Source: Eledone cirrhosa
Taxonomy: Eukaryota
Assembly (NCBI GenBank): GCA_964016885.1
Contig: OZ024743.1
Span: 375,844,001 to 375,908,000, forward strand
Direction: 5' to 3'
DNA length: 64,000 bases
Shown: piece after piece, positions 15,106 to 59,750 of the stretch
How positions within the stretch are numbered: position 1 is the stretch's first letter
Layout: every line of letters begins with the position of its first letter
The notes under the pieces: generated by a model
The model's database searches: none
What the model was told of the DNA's origin: nothing
Seen by the model: the letters and a program-made list of their open reading frames with translations, nothing else
Position numbers and translations under genes: made by a program

Positions 15106-16113
15106 TAAACACATCCTTAAATGCGGAAACCCACAGGGTAGACCCTTGGTCACAGTCCTAGCGACTGAACGCAACATCGGATCCTTAAGGATAAAGGAAG
15201 CACTTGTTATTAAGAACCTCAGACCCCCACTTAACAACCGGGCTGAGAGAAATGAGCGGACATGGCTAACTTAACCATAGTGACCATTCACAGCCTACGG
15301 CCTGCTATCTTCACACACACGCACGTATATGCATACCCATACGCATACACACACACATCTATATTTATACACGCACACATGTTCTTACAACCTACCACCT
15401 TTCACACCCTTTGATTTCCAGCTTCTACAGCCCACTATCTTTCACACACACACGCACTCACACATATACACACACAGTTACACACACATATATACCCATA
15501 CGCTTACACACACACAGCTATATTTATACACGCACACATGTTTTACAACCTACCACCTTTCACGCCCTTTGATTTCCAGCTTCTACAGCCCACTATCTTT
15601 CACACACACACACACTCACACATATACACACTTACACTTATACACACATAGTTACACACACATATATATTTACACACACATATTTTACGGCTTTCACACG
15701 CTAGCGCACCCTCTTGATTTAACCCATTTGGTCAGTAGCTTTTGCCACAGCCTATCACGCGCACGCGCATTCTTTCCCTCGTTTAAATTTTAAATAAATT
15801 TCTCCCCATAACAGCATTCCTGTCTTAACGACATCACAACTTTCTCCGCTTGGCCTGTTCCCCCCCTTTTGGAACTTTCCCCCGTTGATGGGCGTGAGCC
15901 CGAAATATTGGGATTAAATCTCCACTACGGTAACCCTTCTACCTTTGTTTTGTTTTTGTTTTCATCTTTGTCTCTCTCAATTTTCACTTTCTCCTGTTTC
16001 TCCTATCTATCATTCACTTCCTACCTCGAGATTTCCCTCTGCATTGTTGTGGCTTTCTTAACTACGTATTTTACACATTTCACAATTCTTCAAGCAAACT
16101 TTAACACCCTCTT
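15106..16113 (+). mobile_element. 3' fragment of PLE family C (EN end plus pLTR)
   Basis: Near-identical to 56973-57975. Confidence 0.9.
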
Positions 16114-17152: not shown

Positions 17153-18987
17153 ATAAAGACAAATAACGAAACGAAATTAAATTTCGTTTCGTTTGTAACT
17201 CATTTTGTATGACTGACGCTTAAACAATTAAGTTAAAAATGTACATCCACATATGTATACTGAAATACTAGTATGCATATGAATACACACACGTATACAT
17301 ATGTAGATGTACCAAGTTTTTCACTGGTCACTTTACCGTGAGTGTCCAGCTATTCTGTATGTAAACACACATGGCTTTCTGGAGAATAGAGGAAAGGTGT
17401 TTCCTCAAAAACCAGTGTGACTCTAAAAACAGGTTTGTCTGTGTGTTTACATACAGAATAGCTGGACACTCACGGTAAAGTGACCAGTGAAAAACTTGGT
17501 ACATCTACATATGTATACGTGTGTGTATTCATATGCATACTAGTATTTCAGTCTACATATGTGGATGTACATTTTTAACTTAATTGTGTAAGCGTCAGTC
17601 ATACAAAAGTGAGTTACAAACGAAACGAAATTTAATTTCGTTTCGTTATTTGTCTTTATCGTCTCCGTTGAACCGGTACGTACTCACACTCTATGCAAAT
17701 TGGTCTGCCCACTACTAATTTTCATAGAAAAAGCATATAACGATATGTGTTTTTACGATTCTCCAGAAAGGCCGGTAGATAGGTAAATATTGCTGATGAG
17801 TTGTAACAACAACCAAACTAGTTCAATGTTCCTTGTCTGGCTTTCTGGAGAATAGAGGAAAGGTGTTTCCTCAAAAACCAGTGTGACTCTAAAAACCGGT
17901 TTGTCTGTGTGTTTACATACAGAATAGCTGGACACTCACGGTAAAGTGACCAGTGAAAAACTTGGTACATCTACATATGTATACGTGTGTGTATTCATAT
18001 GCATACTAGTATTTCAGTATACATATGTGGATGTACATTTTTAACTTAATTGTTTAAGCGTCAGTCATACAATAGTGAGTTACAAACGAAACGAAATTTA
18101 ATTTCGTTTCGTTATTTGTCTTTATCGTCTCCGTTGAACCGGTACGTACTCACACTCTATGCAAATTGGTCTGCCCACTACTAATTTTCATAGAAAAAGC
18201 ATATAACGATATGTGCTTTTACGATTCTCCAGAAAGGCCGGTAGATAGGTAAATATTGCTGATGAGTTGTAACAACAACCAAACCAGTTCAATGTTCCTT
18301 GTCTGGCTTTCTGGAGAATAGAGGAAAGGTGTTTCCTCAAAAACCAGTGTGACTCTAAAAACCGGTTTGTCTGTGTGTTTACATACAGAATAGCTGGACA
18401 CTCACGGTAAAGTGACCAGTGAAAAACTTGGTACATCTACATATGTATACGTGTGTGTATTCATATGCATACTAGTATTTCAGTATACATATGTGGATGT
18501 ACATTTTTAACTTAATTGTTTAAGCGTCAGTCATACAATAGTGAGTTACAAACGAAACGAAATTTAATTTCGTTTCGTTATTTGTCTTTATCGTCTCCGT
18601 TGAACCGGTACGTACTCACACTCTATGCAAATTGGTCTGCCCACTACTAATTTTCATAGAAAAAGCATATAACGATATGTGCTTTTACGATTCTCCAGAA
18701 AGGCCGGTAGATAGGTAAATATTGCTGATGAGTTGTAACAACAACCAAACCAGTTCAATGTTCCTTGTCTGGCTTTCTGGAGAATAGAGGAAAGGTGTTT
18801 CCTCAAAAACCAGTGAGACTCTAAAAACCGATTTGTCTGTGTGTTTACATACAGAATAGCTGGACACTCACGGTAAAGTGACCAGTGAAAAACTTGGTAC
18901 ATCTACATATGTATACGTGTGTGTATTCATATGCATAATAGTATTTCAGTATACATATGTGGATGTACATTTTTAACTTAATTGTTT
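17153..18987 (+). repeat. 466-bp tandem array (about 3.5 units, retrozyme-like family B) preceded by an inverted partial unit
   Basis: Units are offset by 466 bp. 17153-17370 is the reverse complement of 17441-17659. (TA)n on both sides. Confidence 0.92.
17786..17830 (+). ncRNA. HHR-like motif with G12 replaced by C (copies 18252-18296, 18718-18762)
   Basis: AAUAUUG-CUGAUGA-GUUGU aaca ACAAC-CAAA-CUAG-UU-CAAUGUU. Confidence 0.8.
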
Positions 18988-26469: not shown

Positions 26470-29400
26470 TATCATCTTATATTCTCTCAACTAATCACAT
26501 TTGATTATATTTCTCTATCCCGTTTTCTCCCCCCATATTTATAATTTTTTTATTTGAAAAAATCGGTTTTTTTACATTCTGTTTTTCCCTTTCTAATACT
26601 TGCTTATATTTCTTTATATATTCTCTATATATTTTTTTTATTTATATATATATATTTTTTTATCTTTATTCTTATTTTCACTTTTATCTTCCTTTATATT
26701 TTACCTTATTCTTACTTTTATACCTTATTATAATGTAATCTTCCCCATGCCTTATTATACATTATTAATTATAGATTATTATTATTACTCTTTTTCCATT
26801 TCTAATTACCTCATGTACTTTCTCCTCCGTTATATATATATTGTATGCCCTTTGTGTGTGTGTAGCCTCTGCACACCCTCTGCACCCTACTATCGACGCC
26901 ACCCCATCTATGGCTCAACTAACCACTCGACTCCCGAGAATGAATATGACCACAGCTAGTAAACAAGGACCCACACCCCACCCTCCCGCACCAAATTAGA
27001 CTTATCGTCCCCTGCTTTTGCTCTTTACTCTCTTTACTCTTTGTTCTTGAATGTTTGGTTGGTAGAGTCCATAACACAAATGAAACCCCTTTTATAGCTC
27101 CGACGAATCCTACGGTTACGTAAGAAAGAAACATTGTAAGCCAATAAAAATCTGTTGATGTTATAGACGCTCTTGTGTTCTTTATCATATATACGGCTCT
27201 GCTCCAAAGCATAGAGCTAATTATTATGCTGCCAATACCTTAATGGGATTCGGGTATACAATACCTAACTCCTATTAACCTAAGTATTTCTACGGCTCCC
27301 CCCGGTTGAGCTAAATCCTTATAACCTGTCCACCTTGTGTATGATTATAATTGATTGGCAGCATGCTAACTAAAGACTACCTACCTATATCACTCAAGAA
27401 CATCCCAACCCCATCCAGGACTACTTATGAGAAATTACTGATAGCTAGTGTCAACTCCTTCGTTAAGCGTATTAGATGGCGCACTTTCCACTTCGATAAG
27501 AGAAATAAGAAATCAACCACGGTGTCCCCCAATAATAAATTCGGTTTTAAAACCTATAGGAGCCCGCCCCATAACTCCATGCTAGATGGATTTGAGAATG
27601 ACCTCCTAACACTAGTAAGGAATATTAAGTTTAAAAAACCCCATGGGAATAGCAACAAATTCCGGATGAAACTGGAAACCTTAGTTAAGGGCTTTAACGA
27701 TAAAAGAGATATCCTGGTCACCTCGGATAAAACCAGAAATATTTATAGCTTAAATTATGATACGTATCGTAGGTTTATATACAATGAATTAAATAGAAAC
27801 TATAAAAAGACAACAAGCGCAAACCTAGATGAAATTAATAAGGAAGCATGCGCCATAGTGGATAAACTAGGCCTGGAAAAGTAAACCCAACCATATACCC
27901 CTAGGCAACCCAGGTTCATCCTTAAAGACCATAAGGCTGACTTCATTAGTAAACCCTCTGTTAGATTAATTAGCCCATCGAAGTCAGATATAGGGATTAT
28001 CATTAAGAAAATTTTAGACGGCGTTATACCTACCATCAGGAGGAAAATAAATCTAGAGCTATGGGAGAATACGGAAGAGGTTTTGAAATGGTTCTCAAGC
28101 CTTAGCAACCATAAATCCCTTAAATTTATACAATTCGACATCGATGCGTACTACACCTCAATCTCCCCCATACTCCTTAATAAGGCCCTAATCATGGCCA
28201 TGCAGAAAAGTGACCTCACTAGATCTCAAATTGATGTCATTCTTGCGGCCCGGAAAACGATAATCACATTTGAGGACGAATTGTGGACCCGCAAGAATAC
28301 GCCCAATAACTTCGACATCACAATGGGATCTAGTGACTCTGCACAAGTAACGGACCTAGTAGGATTGTACCTCTTAAAGGAGTTACATGAGACATTACCG
28401 CACTTGAAGGGCGGCTTATATCGTGATGACGCCCTCCTTACTCTCGAGTATAAAAAGTGCAATATAGAAAGAACTAGGAAACAGTTACGTAGGTTCTTTA
28501 AAAGCTTTAATCTAAGTATTACCATAGATGCAAATGACAAAACAGTAAACTTCCTAGACGCCACCCTTGACCTAGAAACTAAAACATTTGCACCCTACCA
28601 TAAACCTAATGATAGACTAACATATGTAAACGCCAGCTCCAACCACCCCAAATCAGTCCTAAACGCTATTCCCAAGAGGGTCTCTAATAGAATTAGCAGA
28701 CTGTCCTGTAATGAGAGTATCTTCAACTCCAATGCAGACTATTATGACAAGGCCCTAGCAGAATCTGGTTACGGGAATAGATTATCATATATACATAAGG
28801 ACTCCCAAACCATGAGTGTGAAACGTACCAACATAATCACACATAGTATGGCCACAAAGCCTAACCAACTTAGAGGCAAGAATAATAGTAAGAACCCTAA
28901 TGGCGCTAACCCAGCTAAATGTAAACCACGTAGAGACAATACTAGAGTCCCTCACCACAACTCTAAAACAGCAAATGATCATGCCATGAATATAAACCAT
29001 CCGGGCTTAAGCAAAACAGACAACGCCACTAACGTTATTAACGGTACCCTACAAAATAGTACGCACAGTAACGAGACTCACCCCATAGATAAGAAAAATA
29101 GAAGAAGGAAAAACATATATTTTAACCCACCTTTTAACTCTGAGGTCCGCACTAACCTCCCCAGAGTATTCTTCGCATTATTAGAAAAAACTTCCCACCA
29201 GGCAATAGATATCGCAACATAATTAACAAAAACGTGATTAAATTATCCTATTCGACCACACCTAACCTCGCATCACACCTAGCACGCACGAACATTAGGA
29301 AAACTAGAGAAGGTTTCGAAGCAATTAAAATGGCAGTTAACCACCAGCAACCGACTACACTGGAAAATGGGCAACATAATAGCATCACTGAGCCATCTAA

Positions 29401-32520: not shown

Positions 32521-33293
32521 CACAAGGGTAAATTAGAGAACAAGAGAACAATAAATTACGTATCAAGGAAGCGCTTTTTATCAAACGCCTGGCACCGCAA
32601 ATAAACAATAGATCCGAGAGAAGCGAAATGAAGTGGCTGGTTTAAGTTAACAAACGATGCAGCAACACACGCACGCACACACACACACAAACTAGACAGC
32701 TACACACGCACACGCACACACACACAGTAGCATTCCACCATACGAACATACTACACTACCAATACAGAGGAACAAGGCAACAACACACACACTCAAGCGA
32801 GACAACAACACACGCACACACACACACAGTAACATTTAACAAACAGGCAGAGAATGGACTGACAGCTAGCACCACCCCCACTCCCACATTCGGCCGCTGA
32901 CCTCTGCCCGACCGACTCCATTTCACGCGCACGCGCGCTCTGCTGAATACCTCAGATATTCAAAACAACAAACAGCGGAGGACGCGTTTCGCACATTTCC
33001 GACAGATAACCTTTCCCCCACCCCGGAAAAAAAACCCAGTTGATGGATGTGAATCCGAAATATATAGGGATAATTAAATCTCACCCAAGGTAACTCTCTC
33101 TCGTGTTCTTATTTTTATTTTATCCTTTATACTCTTTCCTTCATTCTTCTACACGTCTTATACACAACACGCATCTCAACGTACACCCACTTACATCTCT
33201 CTCTCCACCACCGGATCTTGTTACCCGGAGATTTACCCATTTGCATTGTCGAGGCTTCCAAACGACTTAAAGATATTTACCTATTATTCCACA

Positions 33294-35926
33294 ATGCTTC
33301 AAGCAAACTTCAATACTCTCTTATCCTTACACCTGAGCCAGGAATTGTTTGCATCCGTAAGGGAACTGTTTAGACTGTCGGAGAAATGGGCCAATGCTGG
33401 TTGTCAAATTATTTTCCTGAAACGCTGCCTAAAAAACGATGTCATCCCCAACACCATCAGAAACATCCGCTTACCAGTAAGCCTACGTACACCAGCTTTG
33501 CAAAACACCACTAACCGCATACATCGCACGTGTATTAAACAGATCCTGAGACATCTCAACCGCCAATTACACGTCCATAAGCGGATACTCTCAGAGCGGA
33601 CACACCGACTGTCAATAGCACCCAGGGACTTGCTCTTGAAAATCACTAAAGCAATCGACCAGTGCTACCACTCCAGAGTCCAATACGAGAAAAAACGGCT
33701 CAAGCGAAAATATGAGTGGATCTTGTCGGAACGCCACAACGAGAACATCGACACTAACGAACAGACGGACCAGAACCACGTGGAAAACAACAACTTAACA
33801 ACCGCCACCGCAGCATCCACCAACACCGATCCACACCTCAACGATGCAACGCACCTGGTCACCGACCTAACCGGCACTCTCACGAGCGACGAGCTGAAAC
33901 TCCTACACCTCGGACCCAAGTTCATCGTCTCACAACGTCTCGACGACAGACTCAAACTCAACATCGAGGCCAACTTTTGTCGAGCCGCTTACCAACTTAA
34001 ATGGGTGACCGCCATCAACAGCGCCACAGAAAATAACAGCGCCCACGCAACCCACCCCAAGTTCCCCACTTACCACCCCGACAACCCACTCCACCCCCCA
34101 CCCACCAACCACGAACTCGACACTAAACTCATCAGGCTAAAACACTCCATCTCGGATATACTTCACAAACACACACACACATACACACACGCACAACACA
34201 TAACCTCACCAAATCTCAACTCACCACTCTCTCCAACCTAAAATCGAAGAACCTCATCTATCTCCCCTCCGACAAGGGAAAAGAATTCTGCGTCATCAGC
34301 AGAGAGGCCTACAACACCCTGGCCCTCCAACACCTTGACGATGACAACCTCTACTCCAAGGTCACGGGAATCACTCCCGCGCAGATAGAGGAGCACATCA
34401 ACGCCGCCTGGACCAACATCTGCGACCGGCAGAAGCTCCTGAAGAAGCTGAGATACAACCTCCTCACGAGGAACAGCAGACTACCCGCCTTCTACCACCT
34501 CGTGAAAACACATAAACAGGGACCCGACCTGAAAATCAGGCCCATTTTATCGAGCGTGGAGGGACCACTCTACAAAATTTCATGGCTCCTAGCCAGAATA
34601 CTCAAACCCATCTTAGACACCTTGCCGGGACACGTTAACAGCTCCGAGGAGGTGTTGAAGCGCCTGCATCAAATGGATCCCGACACCAGAAGGAATAACA
34701 GATACGCCTTCAGCCTTGATGTAGTCGCTCTCTACACCTCGGTCCCGGCACTCCCGGCCGTCAATATACTGATGGAACGTGTCCAATCCACCGACCTATA
34801 CTGCTTCGGGTTCACCACCACTGACATCCACCAACTCCTATCCATCGTCGTCGACAACACCTACTTCGGATTCATTGACCAAATATACCAACAAACCTCG
34901 GGATTGCCCATGGGATCAAGCCTATCAGGTGTGCTAGCGATCTCTTACATGGACAACCTCGAACGCAAGGCACTCAACGCCTGCCACCCCAACGCCGTAG
35001 CCTTTTTCTCAAGGTACGTGGACGATATCCTCATCCTCACATCTTCCCAAGAGACGGCGAACAGAATCTATGAGACGTTCAACAACACGGACGAGAACAT
35101 TGACTTCAGTGTTGAACACCCCAACGAACACGGGTCACTTGCCCTCCTCGACTTCCGAATCAACATCACGGAACAGGGAAGGATCCACTGCAACTTCTAC
35201 CGAATGGCAGCCTGCAGGGACCTGTTCGTTCACTACAAGTCCGCCCTCCCTAACAGTGCCAAAAGAGGATACATCACGAACGAGATCGCGCGAATCAAAA
35301 ACAGATGCAGCGATCCCGCTAGTGGTGTCACACATACCAAGAGATTCCTCGAGGTGCTGGAGACGAACGGGTATCCTACCTCGCTCACAGACAGAGTGGG
35401 AGACACCAGACACAAGAGACAGAGAGGCACCCAAAGCAAGTGCTTCCTTAAAATGCCACACCTGGGCGAGAATACCACCAACGCTATCCGCAAGGCTATA
35501 CGGAGGGAGGGCCTCGACATTCACCTGGCCCATTCGGGCCCCTCCCTGCGAAGATGCCTCTCCAGAAAACCCGGGAAATCTACTGACGCGTGCTCCCTCA
35601 GAGACTGCCCGATACGCAATGCGAACTGTTGCCTACGCACATACGTCGTGTATAAGGTAGAATGTGACAGGTGCAACCAATACTATATAGGTAGCACAAT
35701 CCGACATTTGCACATCCGGATCAAGGAACACACTAAAACCAGGGCCTCGTCTTTCCGGAAACACATAGACAAATGCGGAAACAAAGACGGAAGGCCCATT
35801 GTCACAATTCTAGCGACTGAAAGAAACGTCGGCACGTTACGTATCAAGGAAGCGCTTTTTATCAAACGCCTTGCACCGCAAATAAACAATCGATCCGAGA
35901 GAAGCGAAATGAAGTGGCTGGTTTAA
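33294..35926 (+). pseudogene. PLE polyprotein (N-terminal domain, RT, GIY-YIG) with one frameshift in a (CA)n tract near 34170-34200
   Basis: [19 protein letters not shown], then PSDKG, SLDVVALYT, GLPMGS, RYVDD, VVYKVEC..YIGST, KEALFI..INNR. Confidence 0.92.
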
Positions 35927-36303
35927 GTTAACAAACGATGCAGCAACACACGCACACACACACAAACGAGACAACTACACACGCACACGCACACACACAC
36001 AGTAGCATTCCACCATACGAACATACTACACTGCCAATACAGAGGAACAAGGCAACAACACACACACTCAAGCGAGACAACAACACACGCACACACACAC
36101 ACAGTAACATTTAACAAACAGGCAGAGAATGGACTGACAGCTAGCACCATCCCACTCCCACATTCGGCCGTTGACCTCTGCCCGACCGACCCCATTTCAC
36201 GCGCACGCGCGCTCTGCCGAATACCTCAGATATTCAAAACAACAAACAGCGGAGGACGCGTTTCGCACCTTCCGACAGACCTTTCCCCCACCCCGGAAAA
36301 AAA

Positions 36304-36340
36304 CCCCAGTTGATGGATGTGAATCCGAAATATATAGGGA
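36304..36340 (+). ncRNA. Atypical HHR-like motif (CAGUUGA core) in family B pLTR; copies 33035-33070, 54823-54850 (truncated), 58635-58671 (minus)
   Basis: CCC-CAGUUGA-U-GGAU guga AUCC-GAAA-UAUAU-A-GGG. Confidence 0.65.
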
Positions 36341-36737
36341 CAATTAATTCTCACCCAAGGTACCTCTCTCTCGTGTTCTTATTTTCATTTTATCCTTTAT
36401 ACTCTTTCCTTCATTCTTCTACACGTCTTATACACACCACGCATCTCAACGTACACCCACTAACATCTCTCTCTCCACCACCGGATCTTGTTACCCGGAG
36501 ATTTGCCCATTTGCATTGTCGAGGCTTCCAAATGACTTAAAGATATTTACCTATTATTCCACAATGCTTCAAGCAAACTTCAATACTCTCATATATATAT
36601 ATATAAAAATATATATAAATATATATATATATATTAATATATATATATAAATATAAATATATATAAAAATATATAAATATACATATATAAATATAAATAT
36701 ATATAAAATATATAAATATATATATATATAAAAATAT

Positions 36738-44339: not shown

Positions 44340-44696
44340 GAACTGAACAGCCTGAATTTTTATGCCGTACGGTGTTAAGGCAACCACGTCACCTTTTTGT
44401 TCAACACTGACACAGGAACGATGTACTAGTTTCAAGCTTGTTAGCTATCATCAGCACCGTATACCCATCTGCCAGATAGTTGAACGTTCGAAAGTATATA
44501 CTTTCCTTATGAAAATTAACGGCTGAGCAGCCTAATTTGCATATCGAGTGAGCTAAGTCGGTCAGGCATACCGAAAACGATAAGTTGAGATAAAATGAAA
44601 ACGAAATTTCATTTCTCACTCTTAGTACGGCACTTACTTAAATGTAAGTATGTGTGTATACGTACATACATATATGCATACAGACGTACAGTAGCA

Positions 44697-46457: not shown

Positions 46458-46563
<106 letters not shown>

Positions 46564-46627
46564 TATATATATATAAATATATATATATATAAATATATAT
46601 ATATAAATATATATATTTATATATATT

Positions 46628-46670
<43 letters not shown>

Positions 46671-46676
<6 letters not shown>

Positions 46677-49333
46677 GTAAGTATGCATGTATACGTACAT
46701 ACATATATGTATACAGACGTACAGTAGCATGCACATATATATATATATATATATACACATATATATACATATGCATACAGGTACACATACATATATGCAC
46801 GTATCAGTTTAGCGGCGCTAACGTCGCTTTGTTCGTTTGTAAACAAACTGAACAGCCTGAATTTATGCCATACGGTGTTAAGGCAACCACGTCACCTTTT
46901 TGTTCAACACTGACACAGGAACGATGTACTAGTTTCAAGCTTGTTAGCTATCATCAGCACCGTTTACCCATCTGCCAGATAGTTGAACGTTCGAAAGTAT
47001 ATACTTTCCTTATGAAAATTAACGGCTGAGCAGCCTAATTTGCATATTGAGTGAGTTAAATCGGTCAGGCATACCGAAAACGATAAATTGAAACAAAATG
47101 AAAACGAAATTTCATTTCTCACTCTTAGTATGGCACTTACATAAATGTAAGTATGCATGTATACGTACATACATATATGTATACAGACGTACAGTAGCAT
47201 GCACATATATATATATATATATATACATATATATATACATATGCATACAGGTACACATACATATATGCACGTATCAGTTTAGCGGCGCTAACGTCGCTTT
47301 GTTCGTTTGTAAACAAACTGAACAGCCTGAATTTATGCCATACGGTGTTAAGGCAACCACGTCACCTTTTTGTTCAACACTGACACAGGAACGATGTACT
47401 AGTTTCAAGCTTGTTAGCTATCATCAGCACCGTTTACCCATCTGCCAGATAGTTGAACGTTCGAAAGTATATACTTTCCTTATGAAAATTAACGGCTGAG
47501 CAGCCTAATTTGCATATTGAGTGAGTTAAATCGGTCAGGCATACCGAAAACGATAAATTGAAACAAAATGAAAACGAAATTTCATTTCTCACTCTTAGTA
47601 TGGCACTTACATAAATGTAAGTATGCATGTATACGTACATACATATATGTATACAGACGTACAGTAGCATGCACATATATATATATATATATATACACAT
47701 ATATATACATATGCATACAGGTACACATACATATATGCACGTATCAGTTTAGCGGCGCTAACGTCGCTTTGTTCGTTTGTAAACAAACTGAACAGCCTGA
47801 ATTTATGCCATACGGTGTTAAGGCAACCACGTCACCTTTTTGTTCAACACTGACACAGGAACGATGTACTAGTTTCAAGCTTGTTAGCTATCATCAGCAC
47901 CGTTTACCCATCTGCCAGATAGTTGAACGTTCGAAAGTATATACTTTCCTTATGAAAATTAACGGCTGAGCAGCCTAATTTGCATATTGAGTGAGTTAAA
48001 TCGGTCAGGCATACCGAAAACGATAAATTGAAACAAAATTTCATTTCTCACTCTTAGTATGGCACTTACATAAATGTAAGTATGCATGTATACGTACATA
48101 CATATATGTATACAGACGTACAGTAGCATGCACATATATATATATATATATATACACATATATATACATATGCATACAGGTACACATACATATATGCACG
48201 TATCAGTTTAGCGGCGCTAACGTCGCTTTGTTCGTTTGTAAACAAACTGAACAGCCTGAATTTATGCCATACGGTGTTAAGGCAACCACGTCACCTTTTT
48301 GTTCAACACTGACACAGGAACGATGTACTAGTTTCAAGCTTGTTAGCTATCATCAGCACCGTTTACCCATCTGCCAGATAGTTGAACGTTCGAAAGTATA
48401 TACTTTCCTTATGAAAATTAACGGCTGAGCAGCCTAATTTGCATATTGAGTGAGTTAAATCGGTCAGGCATACCGAAAACGATAAATTGAAACAAAATGA
48501 AAACGAAATTTCATTTCTCACTCTTAGTATGGCACTTACATAAATGTAAGTATGCATGTATACGTACATACATATATGTATACAGACGTACAGTAGCATG
48601 CACATATATATATATATATATATACACATATATATACATATGCATACAGGTACACATACATATATGCACGTATCAGTTTAGCGGCGCTAACGTCGCTTTG
48701 TTCGTTTGTAAACAAACTGAACAGCCTGAATTTATGCCATACGGTGTTAAGGCAACCACGTCACCTTTTTGTTCAACACTGACACAGGAACGATGTACTA
48801 GTTTCAAGCTTGTTAGCTATCATCAGCACCGTTTACCCATCTGCCAGATAGTTGAACGTTCGAAAGTATATACTTTCCTTATGAAAATTAACGGCTGAGC
48901 AGCCTAATTTGCATATTGAGTGAGTTAAATCGGTCAGGCATACCGAAAACGATAAATTGAAACAAAATGAAAACGAAATTTCATTTCTCACTCTTAGTAT
49001 GGCACTTACATAAATGTAAGTATGCATGTATACGTACATACATATATGTATACAGACGTACAGTAGCATGCACATATATATATATATATATATACACATA
49101 TATATACATATGCATACAGGTACACATACATATATGCACGTATCAGTTTAGCGGCGCTAACGTCGCTTTGTTCGTTTGTAAACAAACTGAACAGCCTGAA
49201 TTTATGCCATACGGTGTTAAGGCAACCACGTCACCTTTTTGTTCAACACTGACACAGGAACGATGTACTAGTTTCAAGCTTGTTAGCTATCATCAGCACC
49301 GTTTACCCATCTGCCAGATAGTTGAACGTTCGA
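46671..49333 (-). repeat. Family A 470-bp tandem array, left arm (about 5.7 units; HHRs at 46920, 47390, 47860, 48319, 48789, 49259)
   Basis: Period 470 bp. One unit has an 11-bp deletion near 48038. Confidence 0.95.
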
Positions 49334-49376
49334 ATTTATCGTTTTCGGTATGCCTGACCGATTTAACTCACTCAAT

Positions 49377-49384
49377 ATGCAAAT
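49377..49384 (+). promoter_or_regulatory. Octamer motif ATGCAAAT, one per unit, conserved in families A and B
   Basis: Perfect octamer here, at 17693-17700 and near 6994, despite diverged flanks. Confidence 0.5.
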
Positions 49385-49457
49385 TAGGCTGCTCAGCCGT
49401 TAATTTTCATAAGGAAAGTATATACTTTCGAACGTTCAACTATCTGGCAGATGGGTA

Positions 49458-49502
49458 AACGGTGCTGATGATAGCTAACAAGCTTGAAACTAGTACATCG
49501 TT
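49458..49502 (+). ncRNA. Minimal type I HHR, representative of 13 array copies; predicted cleavage after 49495 (GUA)
   Basis: AACGGUG-CUGAUGA-U-AGCU aaca AGCU-U-GAAA-CUAG-UA-CAUCGUU, with palindromic stem III ACUAGU. Confidence 0.9.
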
Positions 49503-52500
49503 CCTGTGTCAGTGTTGAACAAAAAGGTGACGTGGTTGCCTTAACACCGTATGGCATAAATTCAGGCTGTTCAGTTTGTTTACAAACGAACAAAGCGACG
49601 TTAGCGCCGCTAAACTGATACGTGCATATATGTATGTGTACCTGTATGCATATGTATATATATGTGTATATATATATATATATATATGTGCATGCTACTG
49701 TACGTCTGTATACATATATGTATGTACGTATACATGCATACTTACATTTATGTAAGTGCCATACTAAGAGTGAGAAATGAAATTTCGTTTTCATTTTGTT
49801 TCAATTTATCGTTTTCGGTATGCCTGACCGATTTAACTCACTCAATATGCAAATTAGGCTGCTCAGCCGTTAATTTTCATAAGGAAAGTATATACTTTCG
49901 AACGTTCAACTATCTGGCAGATGGGTAAACGGTGCTGATGATAGCTAACAAGCTTGAAACTAGTACATCGTTCCTGTGTCAGTGTTGAACAAAAAGGTGA
50001 CGTGGTTGCCTTAACACCGTATGGCATAAATTCAGGCTGTTCAGTTTGTTTACAAACGAACAAAGCGACGTTAGCGCCGCTAAACTGATACGTGCATATA
50101 TGTATGTGTACCTGTATGCATATGTATATATATGTGTATATATATATATATATATATGTGCATGCTACTGTACGTCTGTATACATATATGTATGTACGTA
50201 TACATGCATACTTACATTTATGTAAGTGCCATACTAAGAGTGAGAAATGAAATTTCGTTTTCATTTTGTTTCAATTTATCGTTTTCGGTATGCCTGACCG
50301 ATTTAACTCACTCAATATGCAAATTAGGCTGCTCAGCCGTTAATTTTCATAAGGAAAGTATATACTTTCGAACGTTCAACTATCTGGCAGATGGGTAAAC
50401 GGTGCTGATGATAGCTAACAAGCTTGAAACTAGTACATCGTTCCTGTGTCAGTGTTGAACAAAAAGGTGACGTGGTTGCCTTAACACCGTATGGCATAAA
50501 TTCAGGCTGTTCAGTTTGTTTACAAACGAACAAAGCGACGTTAGCGCCGCTAAACTGATACGTGCATATATGTATGTGTACCTGTATGCATATGTATATA
50601 TATGTGTATATATATATATATATATATGTGCATGCTACTGTACGTCTGTATACATATATGTATGTACGTATACATGCATACTTACATTTATGTAAGTGCC
50701 ATACTAAGAGTGAGAAATGAAATTTCGTTTTCATTTTGTTTCAATTTATCGTTTTCGGTATGCCTGACCGATTTAACTCACTCAATATGCAAATTAGGCT
50801 GCTCAGCCGTTAATTTTCATAAGGAAAGTATATACTTTCGAACGTTCAACTATCTGGCAGATGGGTAAACGGTGCTGATGATAGCTAACAAGCTTGAAAC
50901 TAGTACATCGTTCCTGTGTCAGTGTTGAACAAAAAGGTGACGTGGTTGCCTTAACACCGTATGGCATAAATTCAGGCTGTTCAGTTTGTTTACAAACGAA
51001 CAAAGCGACGTTAGCGCCGCTAAACTGATACGTGCATATATGTATGTGTACCTGTATGCATATGTATATATATGTGTATATATATATATATATATATGTG
51101 CATGCTACTGTACGTCTGTATACATATATGTATGTACGTATACATGCATACTTACATTTATGTAAGTGCCATACTAAGAGTGAGAAATGAAATTTCGTTT
51201 TCATTTTGTTTCAATTTATCGTTTTCGGTATGCCTGACCGATTTAACTCACTCAATATGCAAATTAGGCTGCTCAGCCGTTAATTTTCATAAGGAAAGTA
51301 TATACTTTCGAACGTTCAACTATCTGGCAGATGGGTAAACGGTGCTGATGATAGCTAACAAGCTTGAAACTAGTACATCGTTCCTGTGTCAGTGTTGAAC
51401 AAAAAGGTGACGTGGTTGCCTTAACACCGTATGGCATAAATTCAGGCTGTTCAGTTTGTTTACAAACGAACAAAGCGACGTTAGCGCCGCTAAACTGATA
51501 CGTGCATATATGTATGTGTACCTGTATGCATATGTATATATATGTGTATATATATATATATATATATGTGCATGCTACTGTACGTCTGTATACATATATG
51601 TATGTACGTATACATGCATACTTACATTTATGTAAGTGCCATACTAAGAGTGAGAAATGAAATTTCGTTTTCATTTTGTTTCAATTTATCGTTTTCGGTA
51701 TGCCTGACCGATTTAACTCACTCAATATGCAAATTAGGCTGCTCAGCCGTTAATTTTCATAAGGAAAGTATATACTTTCGAACGTTCAACTATCTGGCAG
51801 ATGGGTAAACGGTGCTGATGATAGCTAACAAGCTTGAAACTAGTACATCGTTCCTGTGTCAGTGTTGAACAAAAAGGTGACGTGGTTGCCTTAACACCGT
51901 ATGGCATAAATTCAGGCTGTTCAGTTTGTTTACAAACGAACAAAGCGACGTTAGCGCCGCTAAACTGATACGTGCATATATGTATGTGTACCTGTATGCA
52001 TATGTATATATATGTGTATATATATATATATATATATGTGCATGCTACTGTACGTCTGTATACATATATGTATGTACGTATACATGCATACTTACATTTA
52101 TGTAAGTGCCATACTAAGAGTGAGAAATGAAATTTCGTTTTCATTTTGTTTCAATTTATCGTTTTCGGTATGCCTGACCGATTTAACTCACTCAATATGC
52201 AAATTAGGCTGCTCAGCCGTTAATTTTCATAAGGAAAGTATATACTTTCGAACGTTCAACTATCTGGCAGATGGGTAAACGGTGCTGATGATAGCTAACA
52301 AGCTTGAAACTAGTACATCGTTCCTGTGTCAGTGTTGAACAAAAAGGTGACGTGGTTGCCTTAACACCGTATGGCATAAATTCAGGCTGTTCAGTTTGTT
52401 TACAAACGAACAAAGCGACGTTAGCGCCGCTAAACTGATACGTGCATATATGTATGTGTACCTGTATGCATATGTATATATATGTGTATATATATATATA

Positions 52501-52623
52501 TATATATGTGCATGCTACTGTACGTCTGTATACATATATGTATGTACGTATACATGCATACTTACATTTATGTAAGTGCCATACTAAGAGTGAGAAATGA
52601 AATTTCGTTTTCATTTTGTTTCA

Positions 52624-52697
<74 letters not shown>

Positions 52698-52945
52698 GGA
52701 TACATTACGAACGAGATCGCGCGAATCAAAGATGTGAGAAAAACCACAGACCCTCCATCTCAACTCACCTTTTGAAAAGCAGAAGAACTGCGAAACCGGT
52801 AAAGGAACCAAATAAATATATATATATTTTTTTTTAATTATAAAAATAAGACTCCAGTTGCATTTTCGATTTCATCCCTTTTTCTTTATACTTTCACTCG
52901 TCTAGGATACCTCGGTTATTTTTCATTTTGTAAAAAAAACCTCAC

Positions 52946-53297: not shown

Positions 53298-54850
53298 ATC
53301 CCGAGGTTTGTTGGTATGTTTGGTCTGACCAAATATACCAACAAACCTCGGGATTGCCCATGGGATCAAGCCTGTCAGGTGTGCTAGCGATCTCTTACAT
53401 GGACAACCTCGATCGCAAGGCACTCAACGCCTGCCACCCCAACGCCGTAGCCTTTTTCTCAAGGTACGTGGACGATATCCTCATCCTCACATCTTCCCAA
53501 GACACGGCGAACAGAATCTATGAGACGTTCAACAACACGGACGAGAACATTGACTTCAGTGTTGAACACCCCAACGAACACGGGTCACTTGCCCTCCTCG
53601 ACTTCCGAATCAACATCACGGAACAGGGAAGGATCCACTGCAACTTCTACCGAATGGCAGCCTGCAGGGACCAGTTCGTTCACTACAAGTCCGCCCTCCC
53701 GAACAGTGCCAAAAGAGGATATATCACGAACGAGATCGCGCGAATCAAAAACAGATGCAGCGATCCCGCTAGTGGTGTCACACATACCAAGCGATTCCTC
53801 GAGGTGCTGGAGACGAATGGGTACCCTACCTCGCTCACAGACAGAGTGGGAGACGCCAGACACAAGAGACAGAGAGGCACCCAAGGCAAGTGCTTCCTTA
53901 AAATGCCACACCTGGGCGAGAATACCACCAACACTATCCGCAAGGCTATACGGAGGGAGGGCCTCGACACACACCTGGTCCACTCGGGCCCCTCCCTGCG
54001 AACATGCCTCTCCAGGAAACCCGGGAAATCTACTGATGCATGCTCCCTCAGAGACTGCCCGATACGCCATGCGAACTGTTGCCTACGCACATATGTCGTG
54101 TATAAGATAGAATGTGACAGCTGCAACCAATACTACATAGGTAGTACAATCCGACCTTTGCGCATCCGGATCAAGGAACACACTAAAACCAGGGCCTCGT
54201 CTTTCCGGAAATACATAGACAAATGCGAAAACAAAGACGCAAGGCCCATTGTCACAATTCTAGCGACTGAAAGAAACGTCGGCACGTTACGTATCAAAGA
54301 AGCGCTTTTTCTCAAGCGCCTTGAACCGCAAATAAACAACCGATCAGAGAGAAGAGAAATGAGATGGCTGGTTTAAGTTAACAAACGATGCAGCAACACA
54401 CAACACACGCACACACACACACACACACAAACGAGACAACTACACACACACGCGCACACACACACACAGTAGCATTCCACCATACGAACATATTACACTG
54501 CCAATACAGAGGAACAAGGCAACAACACACGCACACACACACACACTCAAGCGAGACAACAACACACGCACACACACACACACTCAAGCGAGACAACAAC
54601 ACACGCACACACACACACAGTAACATTTAACAAACAGGCAGAGAATGGACTGACAGCTAGCGCCATCCCACTCCCTCATTCGGCCGCTGACCTCTGCCCG
54701 ACCGACCCCATTTCACGCGCACGCGCGCTCTGCCGAATACCTCAGATATTCAAAATAACAAACAGCGGAGGACGCGTTTCGCACCTGTCCGACAGAGAAC
54801 CTTTTCCCCCACCCCGGAAAAACCCCCAGTTGATGGATGTGAATCCGAAA
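53298..54850 (+). mobile_element. 5'-truncated PLE family B (ORF 53354-54376) with a snap-back hairpin at its 5' end
   Basis: Near-identical to 34877-36330. It ends at the GAAA of the HHR-like motif. Confidence 0.93.
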
Positions 54851-55485
54851 AACATCGATCTACCTACCAACGATGCTTCACACCTCGTTACCGACTTAAC
54901 CGGTACCCTCACCAACGACGAACTCGAACTTCTGCGCCTCGGACCCAAGTTCATCATTACACAGCGTCTCGATGATAGACTGAAACTCGACATCGAAACC
55001 AACTTCTGTCGGACAGCATATCAACTGAAATGGCTAACCGCCATCCAAAACAACACCGAGATCGATTACAACCCCACAACCCACCCCACACTCCCCACGT
55101 ATCACCTCGACAACCCACTCCACCCCCCACCCACCAACAACGAACTTGACACTAAACTACTCAGGTTGAAACATTCTATCTCTAACATCCTTTCCCAACA
55201 CACACACACACACAATAAACGCAACCTCACCAATGCACAATTTAATACTCTCACCAACCTAAGATCCAGGAACCTTGTGTACCTTCCCTCTGACAAAGGG
55301 AAAGAATTCTGTGTCATCTTGAGAGAGACCTACAACAACTTAGCTCTCCAACATCTTAATGACCACAGCCTCTACTCGAAAGTCACAGGGACCTCCTCGA
55401 CTCTAATCGAGGAAGGCATTAACACCATATGGACTAACATCTGTGTCCAACGAAAACTGCCGAAGAAGGTAAAAAACAACATAAT

Positions 55486-55663
55486 TGTTTCTACTTTAGG
55501 CACAAGGCCAGCAATTACCCAGTGCATTACTGGTACTTTATTTTATCGACCCCGTAAGGATGAAAGGCAAAGTCAACCTCGGCGGGATTTGAACTCAGAT
55601 CGTAAAGGGACGTAACTATGCTGGAAAGCATGGCGTCCGACCCTCTACCGATACTGCCAATCC
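55486..55663 (-). mobile_element. SINE (same family as 38503-38678) inserted in the PLE ORF
   Basis: Reverse complement of 38503-38678. TSD ACATAAT at 55479-55485 and 55664-55670. Confidence 0.9.
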
Positions 55664-57746
55664 ACATAATGACTCGAAACAGCAAATTACCCACCTTCTA
55701 CCACCTGGTCAAAACACATAAACAAGGACCCGATTTGAAAATCAGGCCCATTGTCTCTAGCGTGGAGGGCCCACTCTACAAAATATCGTGGCTGCTCTCC
55801 ACACTACTGAAACCTATTCTACACACACTACCAGCCCACGTCTGCAGCTCAAAGGAAGTCTTGGAGCGACTACACCATCTGGCGCCCAACACCAGAAAGG
55901 ACAACGGTTATGCCTTCAGTCTTGATGTGGTCGCCCTTTATACCTCCGTACCAGCATCCCCAGCTGTCGACCTGTTGACCGAACGAGTCCGAGCATCTAA
56001 CTTACACTGCTTCGGACTCACACACACGGACATCCACCAACTCCTCTCCTTCGTTGTGGATAATGCACTCTTCAATTTCCTCGGCCACACGTACAAACAA
56101 ATCTCTGGGCTACCTATGGGCTCTAGTCTGTCCGGCATACTTGCGATCTCGTACATGGACCACCTGGAACGCAAGGCACTCAATACCTGCCAACCCAACG
56201 CCGTCGCCTTCTACTCCAGATACGTTGATGATATCCTGATACTTACTTCTTCCCGGGAGATGGCGAATGAAATTCACCAAATCTTCAACGATACTGACCA
56301 TCACGTCGATTTCACCATCGAACACCCAGGAGAAGACGGGTCACTCGCCCTCCTCGACTTCCGTATCAACATCTCGGAAGAAGGAGACATAAACACCACC
56401 TTCTACCGCAAAGCAGCGTGCAAGGACTTATTTGTGCATTATAACTCAGCCCTCCCCAACAACGCTAAGAGAGGCTATGTCCTAAATGAACTGACACGGA
56501 TCACTAACAGATGCAGCGACCCGATGGGTGGTCTCACCCATACCACGCAATTCCGTAATCTACTCAGATCTAATGGTTATCCAAGCGACTGATTAACGGA
56601 ATTAGAGACCCCAGACCCAATAGACAGACACCCACTAGAAAATTAAATAATAGCAGGTGCTTCTTTAAAATCCCCCACCTGAGTGAATATACCACGAACG
56701 CCATCCGCAGGGCCATACGGACGGAGGGACTTGACATACATTTGGCCCACACAGGACCTTCGCTGCGAAGATGCCTCTCCAACAAACCCGACGAGTCAGA
56801 TGGGACGTGTTCCCTCAGCAACTGCCTGATACGGGGGGAAGATTGCCTACGCACCTATGTCGTATATAAGATTCAATGCGATAAATGTAACAAGTTTTAC
56901 ATAGGTAGCACCATCCGACCCCTACATGTTCGTATCAAGGAACATATCAACACCAACGCATCTTCCTTCCGTAAACACATCCTTAAATGCGGAAACCCAC
57001 AAGGTAGACCCTTGGTCACAGTCCTAGCGACTGAACGCAGCATCGGATCCTTAAGGATAAAGGAAGCACTTGTTATTAAGAACCTCAGACCCCCACTTAA
57101 CAACCGGGCTGAGAGAAATGAGCTGACATGGCTAACTTAACCATAGTGACCATTCACAGCCTACGGCCTGCTATCTTCACACACACGCACGTATATGCAT
57201 ACCCATACGCATACACACACACATCTATATTTATACACGCACACATGTTTTTACAACCTACCACCTTTCACACCCTTTGATTTCCAGCTTCTACAGCCCA
57301 CTATCTTTCACACACAAACGCACTCACACATATACACACACAGTTACACACACATGTATACCCATACGCTTACACACACACATCTATATTTATACACGCA
57401 CACATGTTTTACAACCTACCACCTTTCACACCCTTTGATTTCCAGCTTCCACAGCCCACTATCTTTCACACACACACACACACACACTCACACATATACA
57501 CACACTTATACACACACAGTTACACACACATATATATTTACACACACATATCTTACGGCTTTCACACGCTAGCGCACCCTCTTGATTTAACCCATTTGGT
57601 CAGTAGCTTTTGCCACAGCCTATCACGCGCACGCGCATTCTTTCCCTCGTTTAAATTTTAAATAATTTTTCTCCCCATAACGGCATTCCTGTCTTAACGA
57701 CATCACAACTTTCTCCGCTTGGACTGTTCCCCCCCTTTTGGAACTT

Positions 57747-57782
57747 TCCCCCGTTGATGGGCGTGAGCCCGAAATATTGGGA
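57747..57782 (+). ncRNA. Atypical HHR-like motif (CCGUUGA core) in family C pLTR; copies 15878-15913, 1015-1050, 940-975 (minus)
   Basis: UCCC-CCGUUGA-U-GGGC guga GCCC-GAAA-UAU-U-GGGA. Confidence 0.65.
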
Positions 57783-58422: not shown

Positions 58423-59750
58423 GGGTAAATATCTTTAAGTCGTTTGGAACCCTCGACAATGCAAATGGGTAAATCTCCGGGTAACAAGATCCGGTGGTGG
58501 AGAGAGAGATGTAAGTGGGTGTACGTTGAGATGCGTGGTGTGTATAAGACGTGTAGAGGAATGAAGGAAAGAGTATAAAGGATAAAATTAAAATAACAAC
58601 ACGAGAGAGAGTTACCTTGGGAGAGATTTAATTGTCCCTATATATTTCGGATTCACATCCATCAACTGGGATTTTTTCCGGGGTGGGGGAAAGGTTGTCT
58701 GTCGGAAAGGTGCGAAACGCGTCCTCCGCTGTTTGTTGTTTTGAATATCTGAGGTATTCAGCAGAGCGCGTGTGCGCGTGAAATGGGGTCGGTCGGGCAG
58801 AGGTCAGCGGCCGAATGTGGGAGTGGGTGGCGCTGGCTGTCAGTCCATTCTCTGCCTGTTTGTTAAATGTTACTGTGTGTGTGTGTGTGCGTATGTTGTT
58901 GTCTCGCTTGAGTGTGTGTGTGTGTGCGTGTGTTGTTGCCTCTGTATTGGCAGTGTAGTATGCTCGTATGGTGGAACGCTACTGTGTGTGTGCGTGTGCG
59001 TATGTAGCTGTCTCATTTGTGTGTGTGTGCGTGTGTTGCTGCATCGTTTGTTAACTTAAACTAGCCACCTCATTTCGCTTCTCTCGGATCGATTGTTTAT
59101 TTGCAGTGCCAGGCGTTTGATAAAAACCGCTTCCTTGATACGTAACGTGTCGACGTTTCTTTCAGTCCCTAGAATTGTGATAATGGGCCGTCCGTCTTTG
59201 TTTCCGCATTTGTCTATGTGTTTCCGGAAAGACGAGGCCCTAGTTTTAGTGTGTTCCTTGATTCGGATATGCAAATGTCGGATTGTGCTACCTATATAGT
59301 ATTGGTTGCACCTGTCACATTCTACCTTATACACGACGTATGTGCGTAGGCAACAGTTCGCATGGCGTATCGGGCAGTCTCTGAGGGAGCACGCGTCAGT
59401 AGATTTCCCGGGCTTCCTGGAGAGGCATTTTCGCAGGGAGGGGCCCGAGTGGGCCAGGTGGATGTCGAGGCCCTCCCTCCGTATAGCCTTGCGGATAGTG
59501 TTGGTGGTATTCTCGCCCAGGTGTGGCATTTTAAGGAAGCACTTGCCTTGGGTGCCTCTCTGTCTCTTGTGTCTGGCGTCTCCCACTCTGTCTGTGAGCG
59601 AGGTAGGGTACCGTTCGTCTCCAGCACCTCGAGGAATCTCTTGGTATGAGTGACACCACTCGCGGGATCGCTGCATCTGTTTTTGATTCGCGCGATCTCG
59701 TTCGTGATGTATCCTCTTTTTAGGCACTGTTAGGGGGGGCAGACTTGCAG
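58423..59750 (-). mobile_element. 5'-truncated PLE family B copy (EN plus pLTR)
   Basis: Reverse complement of about 35235-36552. ORF 59056-59727 carries YIGST. Confidence 0.93.

What the first reader, a model, noticed from the sequence alone, without database searches (positions are those of the whole stretch)
36304..36340. Atypical CNGUUGA hammerhead-like fold conserved across two PLE families
Seen: families B and C have otherwise dissimilar pLTRs but share CCC-C(A/C)GUUGA-U-stem II-GAAA-UAU-GGGA. Stem II covaries (GGAU/AUCC vs GGGC/GCCC) around a GUGA GNRA loop, and stem III is a palindromic AT stretch. Eight copies are in the window. The core departs from CUGANGA at U4 and A6. Inference: a selected non-canonical HHR or an HHR-derived recognition structure that standard descriptors would miss.
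Basis: partly seen in the sequence, partly recalled or inferred. Interest (0 to 1): 0.78.

Follow-up and report, generated by a model that had tools for sequence, protein, structure and literature searches.

The report
Mutant-core hammerhead in dominant Penelope retrotransposons
Thousands of copies of this animal genome's Penelope-type jumping genes carry a small self-cutting-RNA (hammerhead) fold in which two normally fixed core letters have changed while the other core letters and the pairing are kept, so it is likely a slowed-down version; cutting is untested.

Summary
The motif is real. The window has 8 copies (7 whole, 1 cut short); the genome has 4976 matches, control 0. It sits in the pLTRs of Penelope-like elements, where sister families and distant relatives carry a consensus minimal type I hammerhead. 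The genome preserves intermediates: consensus, U4C, A6U alone, then U4A+A6U (families B, D) and U4C+A6U (C). Between B and C, fourfold sites are 41 of 107 identical, yet every other core position is unchanged and stem II covaries. Genomic 5' junctions do not pile up at the predicted cut (25 vs 2989 read-through) but about 78 nt upstream of the core (337 vs 833), so uncut RNA is the usual template. Consensus-core family E also shows none at its cut (0 vs 119), so this does not measure activity. Best reading: an attenuated, probably dimeric and protein-assisted hammerhead (0.5); rival: a non-cutting protein-binding fold (0.3). Whether A6U arose once or twice is unresolved. I found no report of this double change; Lunse 2016 was unavailable. 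An unchecked scan note reports an A6U core in another genome. New variant of a known kind.

The parts
36304..36339 (+). Family B variant minimal type I hammerhead (U4A, A6U, extra U after A9, 4-bp stem II, 6-nt palindromic helix III segment; predicted cut after 36336), in the 3' pLTR
36229..36230 (+). Main 5' junction of family B genomic copies; likely the RNA 5' end (transcription start, inferred)
   Evidence: 337 copies break here vs 833 read-through; 9 of 15 short junctions among 34 inspected copies
36197..36210 (+). GC-rich box shared by B and C (C copy 57623-57636), about 20-30 nt upstream of the main B junction; promoter role inferred
36357..36365 (+). Predicted splice donor about 23 nt after the cut site; same place in families C, D, E and the old A6 group; splicing untested
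36564..36594 (+). Start codon and first codons of the next unit; 3' end of the insertion, followed by a TA microsatellite
33294..35926 (+). Family B Penelope-like ORF (RT + C-terminal GIY-YIG), frameshifted near 34130-34240
33034..33069 (+). Family B motif in the 5' pLTR of the same element
54824..54850 (+). Family B motif cut off after A15.1 and joined to a 5'-truncated family C ORF
58636..58671 (-). Family B motif, inverted copy
57747..57782 (+). Family C variant hammerhead (U4C, A6U; predicted cut after 57778)
54851..57140 (+). Family C ORF, 5'-truncated and frameshifted (RT + GIY-YIG)
15878..15913 (+). Family C motif
1015..1050 (+). Family C motif, right arm of an inverted pair
940..975 (-). 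Family C motif, left arm of the inverted pair
7084..8559 (+). Family E ORF fragment (58% identical to B); other E copies carry the consensus core at the homologous site

Best explanation
This is the Penelope pLTR minimal hammerhead with core changes at positions 4 and 6, kept under selection, and it likely works as a slow ribozyme that would cut only as a dimer or with help from the element's own protein. Shown: descent from a consensus core, retention of C3, G5, G8, A9, G10.1-C11.1, G12, A13, A14, A15.1 and U16.1, covarying stems, and that most reverse-transcribed templates carried it uncut. Inferred: the motif lies in the 5' leader about 78 nt after the RNA start and again between the ORF and the 3' end of the insertion, so fast cutting would remove the cap and sever the template from its priming region. 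Selection would then keep the active site but tolerate or favour rate-lowering changes at 4 and 6. Untested: any cleavage, dimer formation, protein dependence.
For: Across 19 representatives chosen by me, positions 3, 5, 8, 9 and the first stem II pair are the same in 19 of 19; position 4 is U15/C2/A2 and position 6 A15/U4 (G5, the C3-G8 pairing, A9, the 12-15.1 block and U16.1 were required by my scan for the metagenome rows, so only the own-genome rows test them). B vs C: 41 of 107 fourfold sites identical; chance of 11 core sites staying identical is 2.6e-5 at that rate, 0.009 at the intron's 0.65. Stems: 25 cells with two-sided change vs 7.2 shuffled, 97% paired vs 25-48% when slid (14 rows). 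On the U6-bearing path to B in the tree (about 0.35 changes per site, my sum) the ten core sites and stem II did not change, and helix III grew from 4 to 6 nt while staying palindromic. H17 stays A or U. Precedents: the anole PLE hammerhead cleaves only with the element's protein and is not needed for insertion in vitro (PMC11167929); natural U4C and A6C variants are weak but active (PMC3088659, PMC7151607). Read-through: 2989 vs 25.
Against: In a pairwise mutagenesis, all single and double mutants of this core region except the C3/G8 swap had low activity (PMC9901934, passages; per-variant values not seen), so the double change may be dead. The RNAcofold MFE shows no hammerhead dimer for B or C. 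No sharp junction peak at the cut. Young family E keeps the consensus core in the same place, so attenuation is not required for an element to spread. If A6U arose separately in C (best EN tree, 85/86), part of the B-C conservation predates it.
Confidence: 0.5

Rival explanations
1. It no longer cuts. The hammerhead fold is kept as a binding site for the element's protein (or for RNA dimerisation through the palindrome) during packaging or reverse transcription.
For: Double changes in this core region had low activity (PMC9901934). Templates are uncut. Catalytic mutants did not affect insertion in vitro (PMC11167929). Naiad elements spread without canonical hammerheads (PMC8557442). The most numerous motif-bearing families found here are the variant ones (4976 vs 48 and 119; the patterns differ and old copies are undercounted).
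Against: Both catalytic guanosines, C3, G5, A9, A13, A14 and a non-G H17 are all kept across near-saturated divergence, which a pure binding role need not demand. In the anole element the minimal template needed for insertion began at +20 of the ORF, past the C3-G8 part of the core (PMC11167929).
Confidence: 0.3
2. It is close to normally active because the element's protein, the longer palindrome in B or another cation makes up for the changes.
For: A6C keeps good rates in Mn2+ (PMC7151607). Weak local excess of junctions at the cut: 9 of 13 non-microsatellite junctions at offsets 0/-1, p 0.007, post hoc.
Against: A window just downstream (+3 to +7) has as many junctions (53). No compensating change is shared by all U6 families.
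Confidence: 0.1
3. It is a decaying relic: the changes were fixed by hitchhiking in successful master elements and nothing selects the motif now.
For: Few master lineages; B and D share one ancestor. Position 4 has taken three states.
Against: No broken pair or lost catalytic base in any amplified family, against 38% identity at fourfold sites and chance-level upstream flanks.
Confidence: 0.07
4. The changes were selected at DNA level because the core doubles as the transcription initiator (the new letters resemble an Inr consensus, recalled from memory).
For: In Drosophila Penelope the donor lies 46 bp after the start (PMC2377424); here it lies 46-52 nt after positions 4-5.
Against: Only 18 B copies break at positions 4-5 (13 true junctions) against 337 at 36229-36230.
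Confidence: 0.03

Closest known systems
Minimal type I hammerheads in metazoan PLE pLTRs (Cervera and De la Pena 2014, PMC4209133; main text parts 1-2 of 4, supplement file 2 part 2 of 3 plus a term search; file 1 not readable)
   Same: pLTR position, extra nucleotide between 9 and 10.1, G10.1-C11.1, short stem I, palindromic helix III segment, predicted dimer.
   Different: All 44 rows seen in their alignment have U4 and A6; the only core change named in the text read is U3-A8. Here 4 and 6 are both changed and fixed in thousands of copies.
Protein-assisted hammerhead of anole Poseidon PAc (Frangieh et al. 2024, PMC11167929; parts 1-2 of 4 and passages)
   Same: pLTR hammerhead; uncut RNA is the main template; no RNA-seq ends found at the cut.
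   Different: No position 4 or 6 change is described there; it overlaps the start codon, whereas this one lies about 230 nt upstream, before a predicted intron.
Natural core variants U4C (viroid) and A6C (phage Bcep176) (Perreault et al. 2011, PMC3088659, section 8 and passages; Naghdi et al. 2020, PMC7151607, part 1 of 4)
   Same: Changes at the same two positions, with low but detectable activity.
   Different: Single changes in rare, monomeric ribozymes; A6U, U4A and a combined 4+6 change are not described in what I read.
Small PLE-associated hammerheads that cleave as dimers (Lunse et al. 2016, PMC5785218; title only, from the reference list of PMC6765202)
   Same: By title: small PLE-associated variants acting as dimers.
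   Different: Not held; whether it lists position 4 or 6 variants could not be checked.

Membership tests
Hammerhead ribozyme (type I, minimal) | Three-way junction with stems I and II and A15.1-U16.1 | tested here: met
Hammerhead ribozyme (type I, minimal) | C3, G5, G8, A9, G12, A13, A14 and a non-G H17 | tested here: met
Hammerhead ribozyme (type I, minimal) | Consensus U4 and A6 | tested here: not met
   U4A/U4C and A6U in B, C, D; so filed as a variant, not a consensus member
Hammerhead ribozyme (type I, minimal) | Self-cleavage 3' of H17 | not testable with these tools
   no assay possible; the junction proxy is uninformative
PLE min-HHR | In the pLTR of an RT + GIY-YIG element, orthologous to consensus min-HHRs | tested here: met
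PLE min-HHR | Extra nucleotide after A9 and palindromic 15.1-16.1 segment | tested here: met
   (palindrome in 18 of 19 rows)
PLE min-HHR | Active dimer through helix III | tested here: inconclusive
   RNAcofold MFE does not give the hammerhead dimer for any of 7 motifs, consensus-core ones included
Penelope-like element clade (Neptune, Nematis or Poseidon) | Placement among reference PLE RTs | not tested
   Cys-rich RT-EN linker seen; no reference tree built

The most novel reading that the evidence does not exclude
Penelope elements in this genome twice converged on A6U and then also changed U4, turning a self-cleaving RNA into one that folds and cuts only inside the element's own protein complex: a natural ribozyme-to-RNP transition with its intermediate steps preserved in one genome.
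Probability: 0.15. Interest if true: 0.8.

Novelty: new variant of a known kind. Interest (0 to 1): 0.52.

Why it matters
What pLTR hammerheads do for Penelope elements is open (PMC8557442, PMC11167929). Here one genome holds an allelic series in nearly the same 35-nt scaffold (consensus, U4C, A6U, U4A+A6U, U4C+A6U), with the double variants in families that amplified to thousands of copies. Assaying five short RNAs with and without the element's protein would show whether cutting is needed, merely tolerated or selected against. It also means descriptor searches that fix U4 and A6 undercount PLE hammerheads, and that two 'invariant' core bases can both be lost in a motif that stays under selection.

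Tried and rejected
1) Alternative register shifted by 3 nt (U3...G9): rejected; it breaks stem I and stem II, and consensus-core relatives fix the register. 2) Further U6 families with other stem II sequences: 34 matches vs 25 control, none a PLE family except one mutated D copy. 3) A relaxed core with position 6 not U gave 136 vs 140 control in total, but included true relatives. 4) The AU tests are invalid (one row's EN belonged to family E) and were redone. One origin of U6 is neither shown nor rejected (p-AU 0.126; support 38/78 and alternative p-AU 0.187; 95/92 only when stem columns are included). For one search, 55 of 96 rows were used: seven long-branch or truncated rows were dropped, B, C and D were thinned, and single A6/C6/G6 copies inside B/C/D were left out. 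5) RNA evidence: no RNA holder listed; only contigs could be laid. The organism B run gave no cover of the motif, which proves nothing. 6) Protein search in the genome returned only family B. 7) Junction test as a proxy for cleavage: uninformative, since consensus-core E has 0 vs 119, where about 1 was expected at B's rate. 8) No covariance model was built: this genome cannot be searched with an alignment and no other animal genome is held. 9) Viral contigs were not searched for the motif; that leaves its presence there open. 10) A sequence look-up in the scan's notes found nothing.

Full report
Observation. The sequence is as described: seven whole copies and one cut after A15.1. [quoted passage not shown] A pattern for the variant core matches 4976 places in the 3.0-Gb genome, 0 when reversed; a family C pattern with up to 3 mismatches matches 1791. 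A third stem-loop form (family D) exists. B and C are related (71% RT, 65% EN), so their shared motif is inherited, and the question is whether it is kept by selection.

Origin. Relaxed patterns found older pLTRs with the same flanks and the same donor-like site but other cores: consensus, U4C with A6, U4A with A6, and A6U with U4 (48 matches, control 0; 197 matches, control 0; listed). Single A6, C6 or G6 copies nested inside B, C and D were picked out by my patterns and look like point mutants. Family E, young and 58% identical to B, has the consensus core at the same place in 16 of 19 fetched copies outside the window. Among 75 metagenome loci with related RTs, my scan, free at positions 4, 6 and 7, found 14 consensus-core hammerheads of the same build in 14 loci. 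Its 9 other rows (in 7 loci) had weak stems or lay within the RT match or on the other strand and were not counted. So this is the ordinary PLE minimal hammerhead of Cervera and De la Pena (PMC4209133) with two core changes.

Selection. Between B and C, 41 of 107 fourfold sites are identical and the upstream 120 nt align at shuffle level, yet C3, G5, U6, U7, G8, A9, G12, A13, A14, A15.1 and U16.1 are the same and two stem II pairs changed on both sides. On 14 rows (D standing in for B, whose length misaligned), 97.1% of cells pair, 7 of 10 pairs change on both sides, and slid controls give 25-48% (rows are related and hand-picked, so the shuffles are not probabilities). The order of events is less clear. 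With stem columns the U6 families form one clade (95/92); on flank alone support falls to 38/78; the EN tree puts C outside the old A6 group (85/86) without rejecting one origin (p-AU 0.126). Either way, along the U6-bearing path to B (about 0.35 changes per site by my sum branches, a rough figure) ten core sites and stem II stayed fixed (chance about 0.002 by hand), and the palindrome grew from 4 to 6 nt.

What templates look like. If cut RNA were copied, genomic copies would start at the cut. A pattern for B/D copies that break within five positions of it found 25 (18 true junctions, 7 internal indels) against 2989 read-through. Control windows gave 53 just downstream, 22 in stem II (10 true) and 18 at positions 4-5 (13 true); the filters pass different shares of junctions, so these are rough. 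There is a small local excess at offsets 0/-1 (9 of 13, p 0.007, post hoc) but no peak above the downstream window. By contrast 337 copies break at 36229-36230 against 833 read-through. In C, 16 of 29 short junctions lie 57-87 nt upstream of C3, in a sample biased to close inverted pairs. The likely RNA start is therefore about 78 nt upstream and the usual template carries the motif uncut. Family E shows 0 junctions at its cut against 119, so the test does not tell active from inactive.

Mechanism. Pairwise mutagenesis found low activity for all single and double changes in this core region except the C3/G8 swap (PMC9901934, passages only; its supplements were listed, but not read). Natural U4C and A6C variants are weak but active (PMC3088659, PMC7151607). 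The anole PLE hammerhead cuts only with its protein, and cutting is not needed for insertion in vitro (PMC11167929). Since every copy that extends into the ORF had to be reverse-transcribed through an uncut 3' motif, weak cutting costs the element little and strong cutting could cost much (inference). Keeping all catalytic bases suggests some cutting still matters. I put an attenuated, dimeric or protein-assisted ribozyme at 0.5, a non-cutting binding fold at 0.3, near-normal activity at 0.1, relic 0.07, initiator overlap 0.03.

Novelty. Seven paper searches (listings only unless named) and the texts named above showed no natural A6U, U4A or combined 4+6 core; all 44 rows of the 2014 supplement seen have U4 and A6. 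Also seen: passages of PMC8557442, PMC2377424, PMC6765202 and PMC11014351, and part 1 of 5 of bioRxiv 10.64898/2026.07.22.740005. Lunse 2016 and supplement file 1 of the 2014 paper could not be read and may bear on this. A scan note (e1-9573165, unchecked) describes an A6U core in a repeat of another animal genome. Verdict: a real, selected new variant of a known kind, shown in one genome, activity unknown; interest 0.52.

Noticed in passing
window 46500-52700: Two inverted tandem arrays of about 470-nt units (centre near 49330), each unit with a consensus-core hammerhead-like motif; related single copies at 2707-2731 (-), 7074-7098 and 44430-44454 (-). Retrozyme-like.
   Followed up: no
window 1769-1846, 2086-2163, 17775-17846: Sub-threshold Rfam HH9 hits (about 31 bits vs 52); the first two lie in a 327-nt exact direct repeat.
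   Followed up: no
window 12174-14444 and 14721-14748: 756-aa ORF with a weak RT hit, followed by a consensus-core hammerhead-like motif: probably another PLE family.
   Followed up: no
window 36229-36230; genome-wide: Many family B insertions are mirror-image arms that both end at this site, some fused through its short palindrome; this maps the RNA 5' end from DNA alone.
   Followed up: partly
window 36284-36299 and 57726-57744: A small hairpin just upstream of stem I is predicted in both B and C; it is not obviously kept in older families.
   Followed up: no
window 54850/54851: A family B pLTR is joined right after A15.1 to a 5'-truncated family C ORF, 6 nt before the predicted cut; single event.
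   Followed up: partly
window 9285-9316: Family E-type pLTR motif with its 3' half disrupted (compare).
   Followed up: no
window 27885-29222: 445-aa ORF with a Pfam D5_N hit (E 6e-7), unrelated to the PLEs.
   Followed up: no
L264, L265, L267, L269, L273, L281: Six copies have internal deletions that end at or next to the first base after the predicted cut; selected by the pattern, no control made.
   Followed up: no
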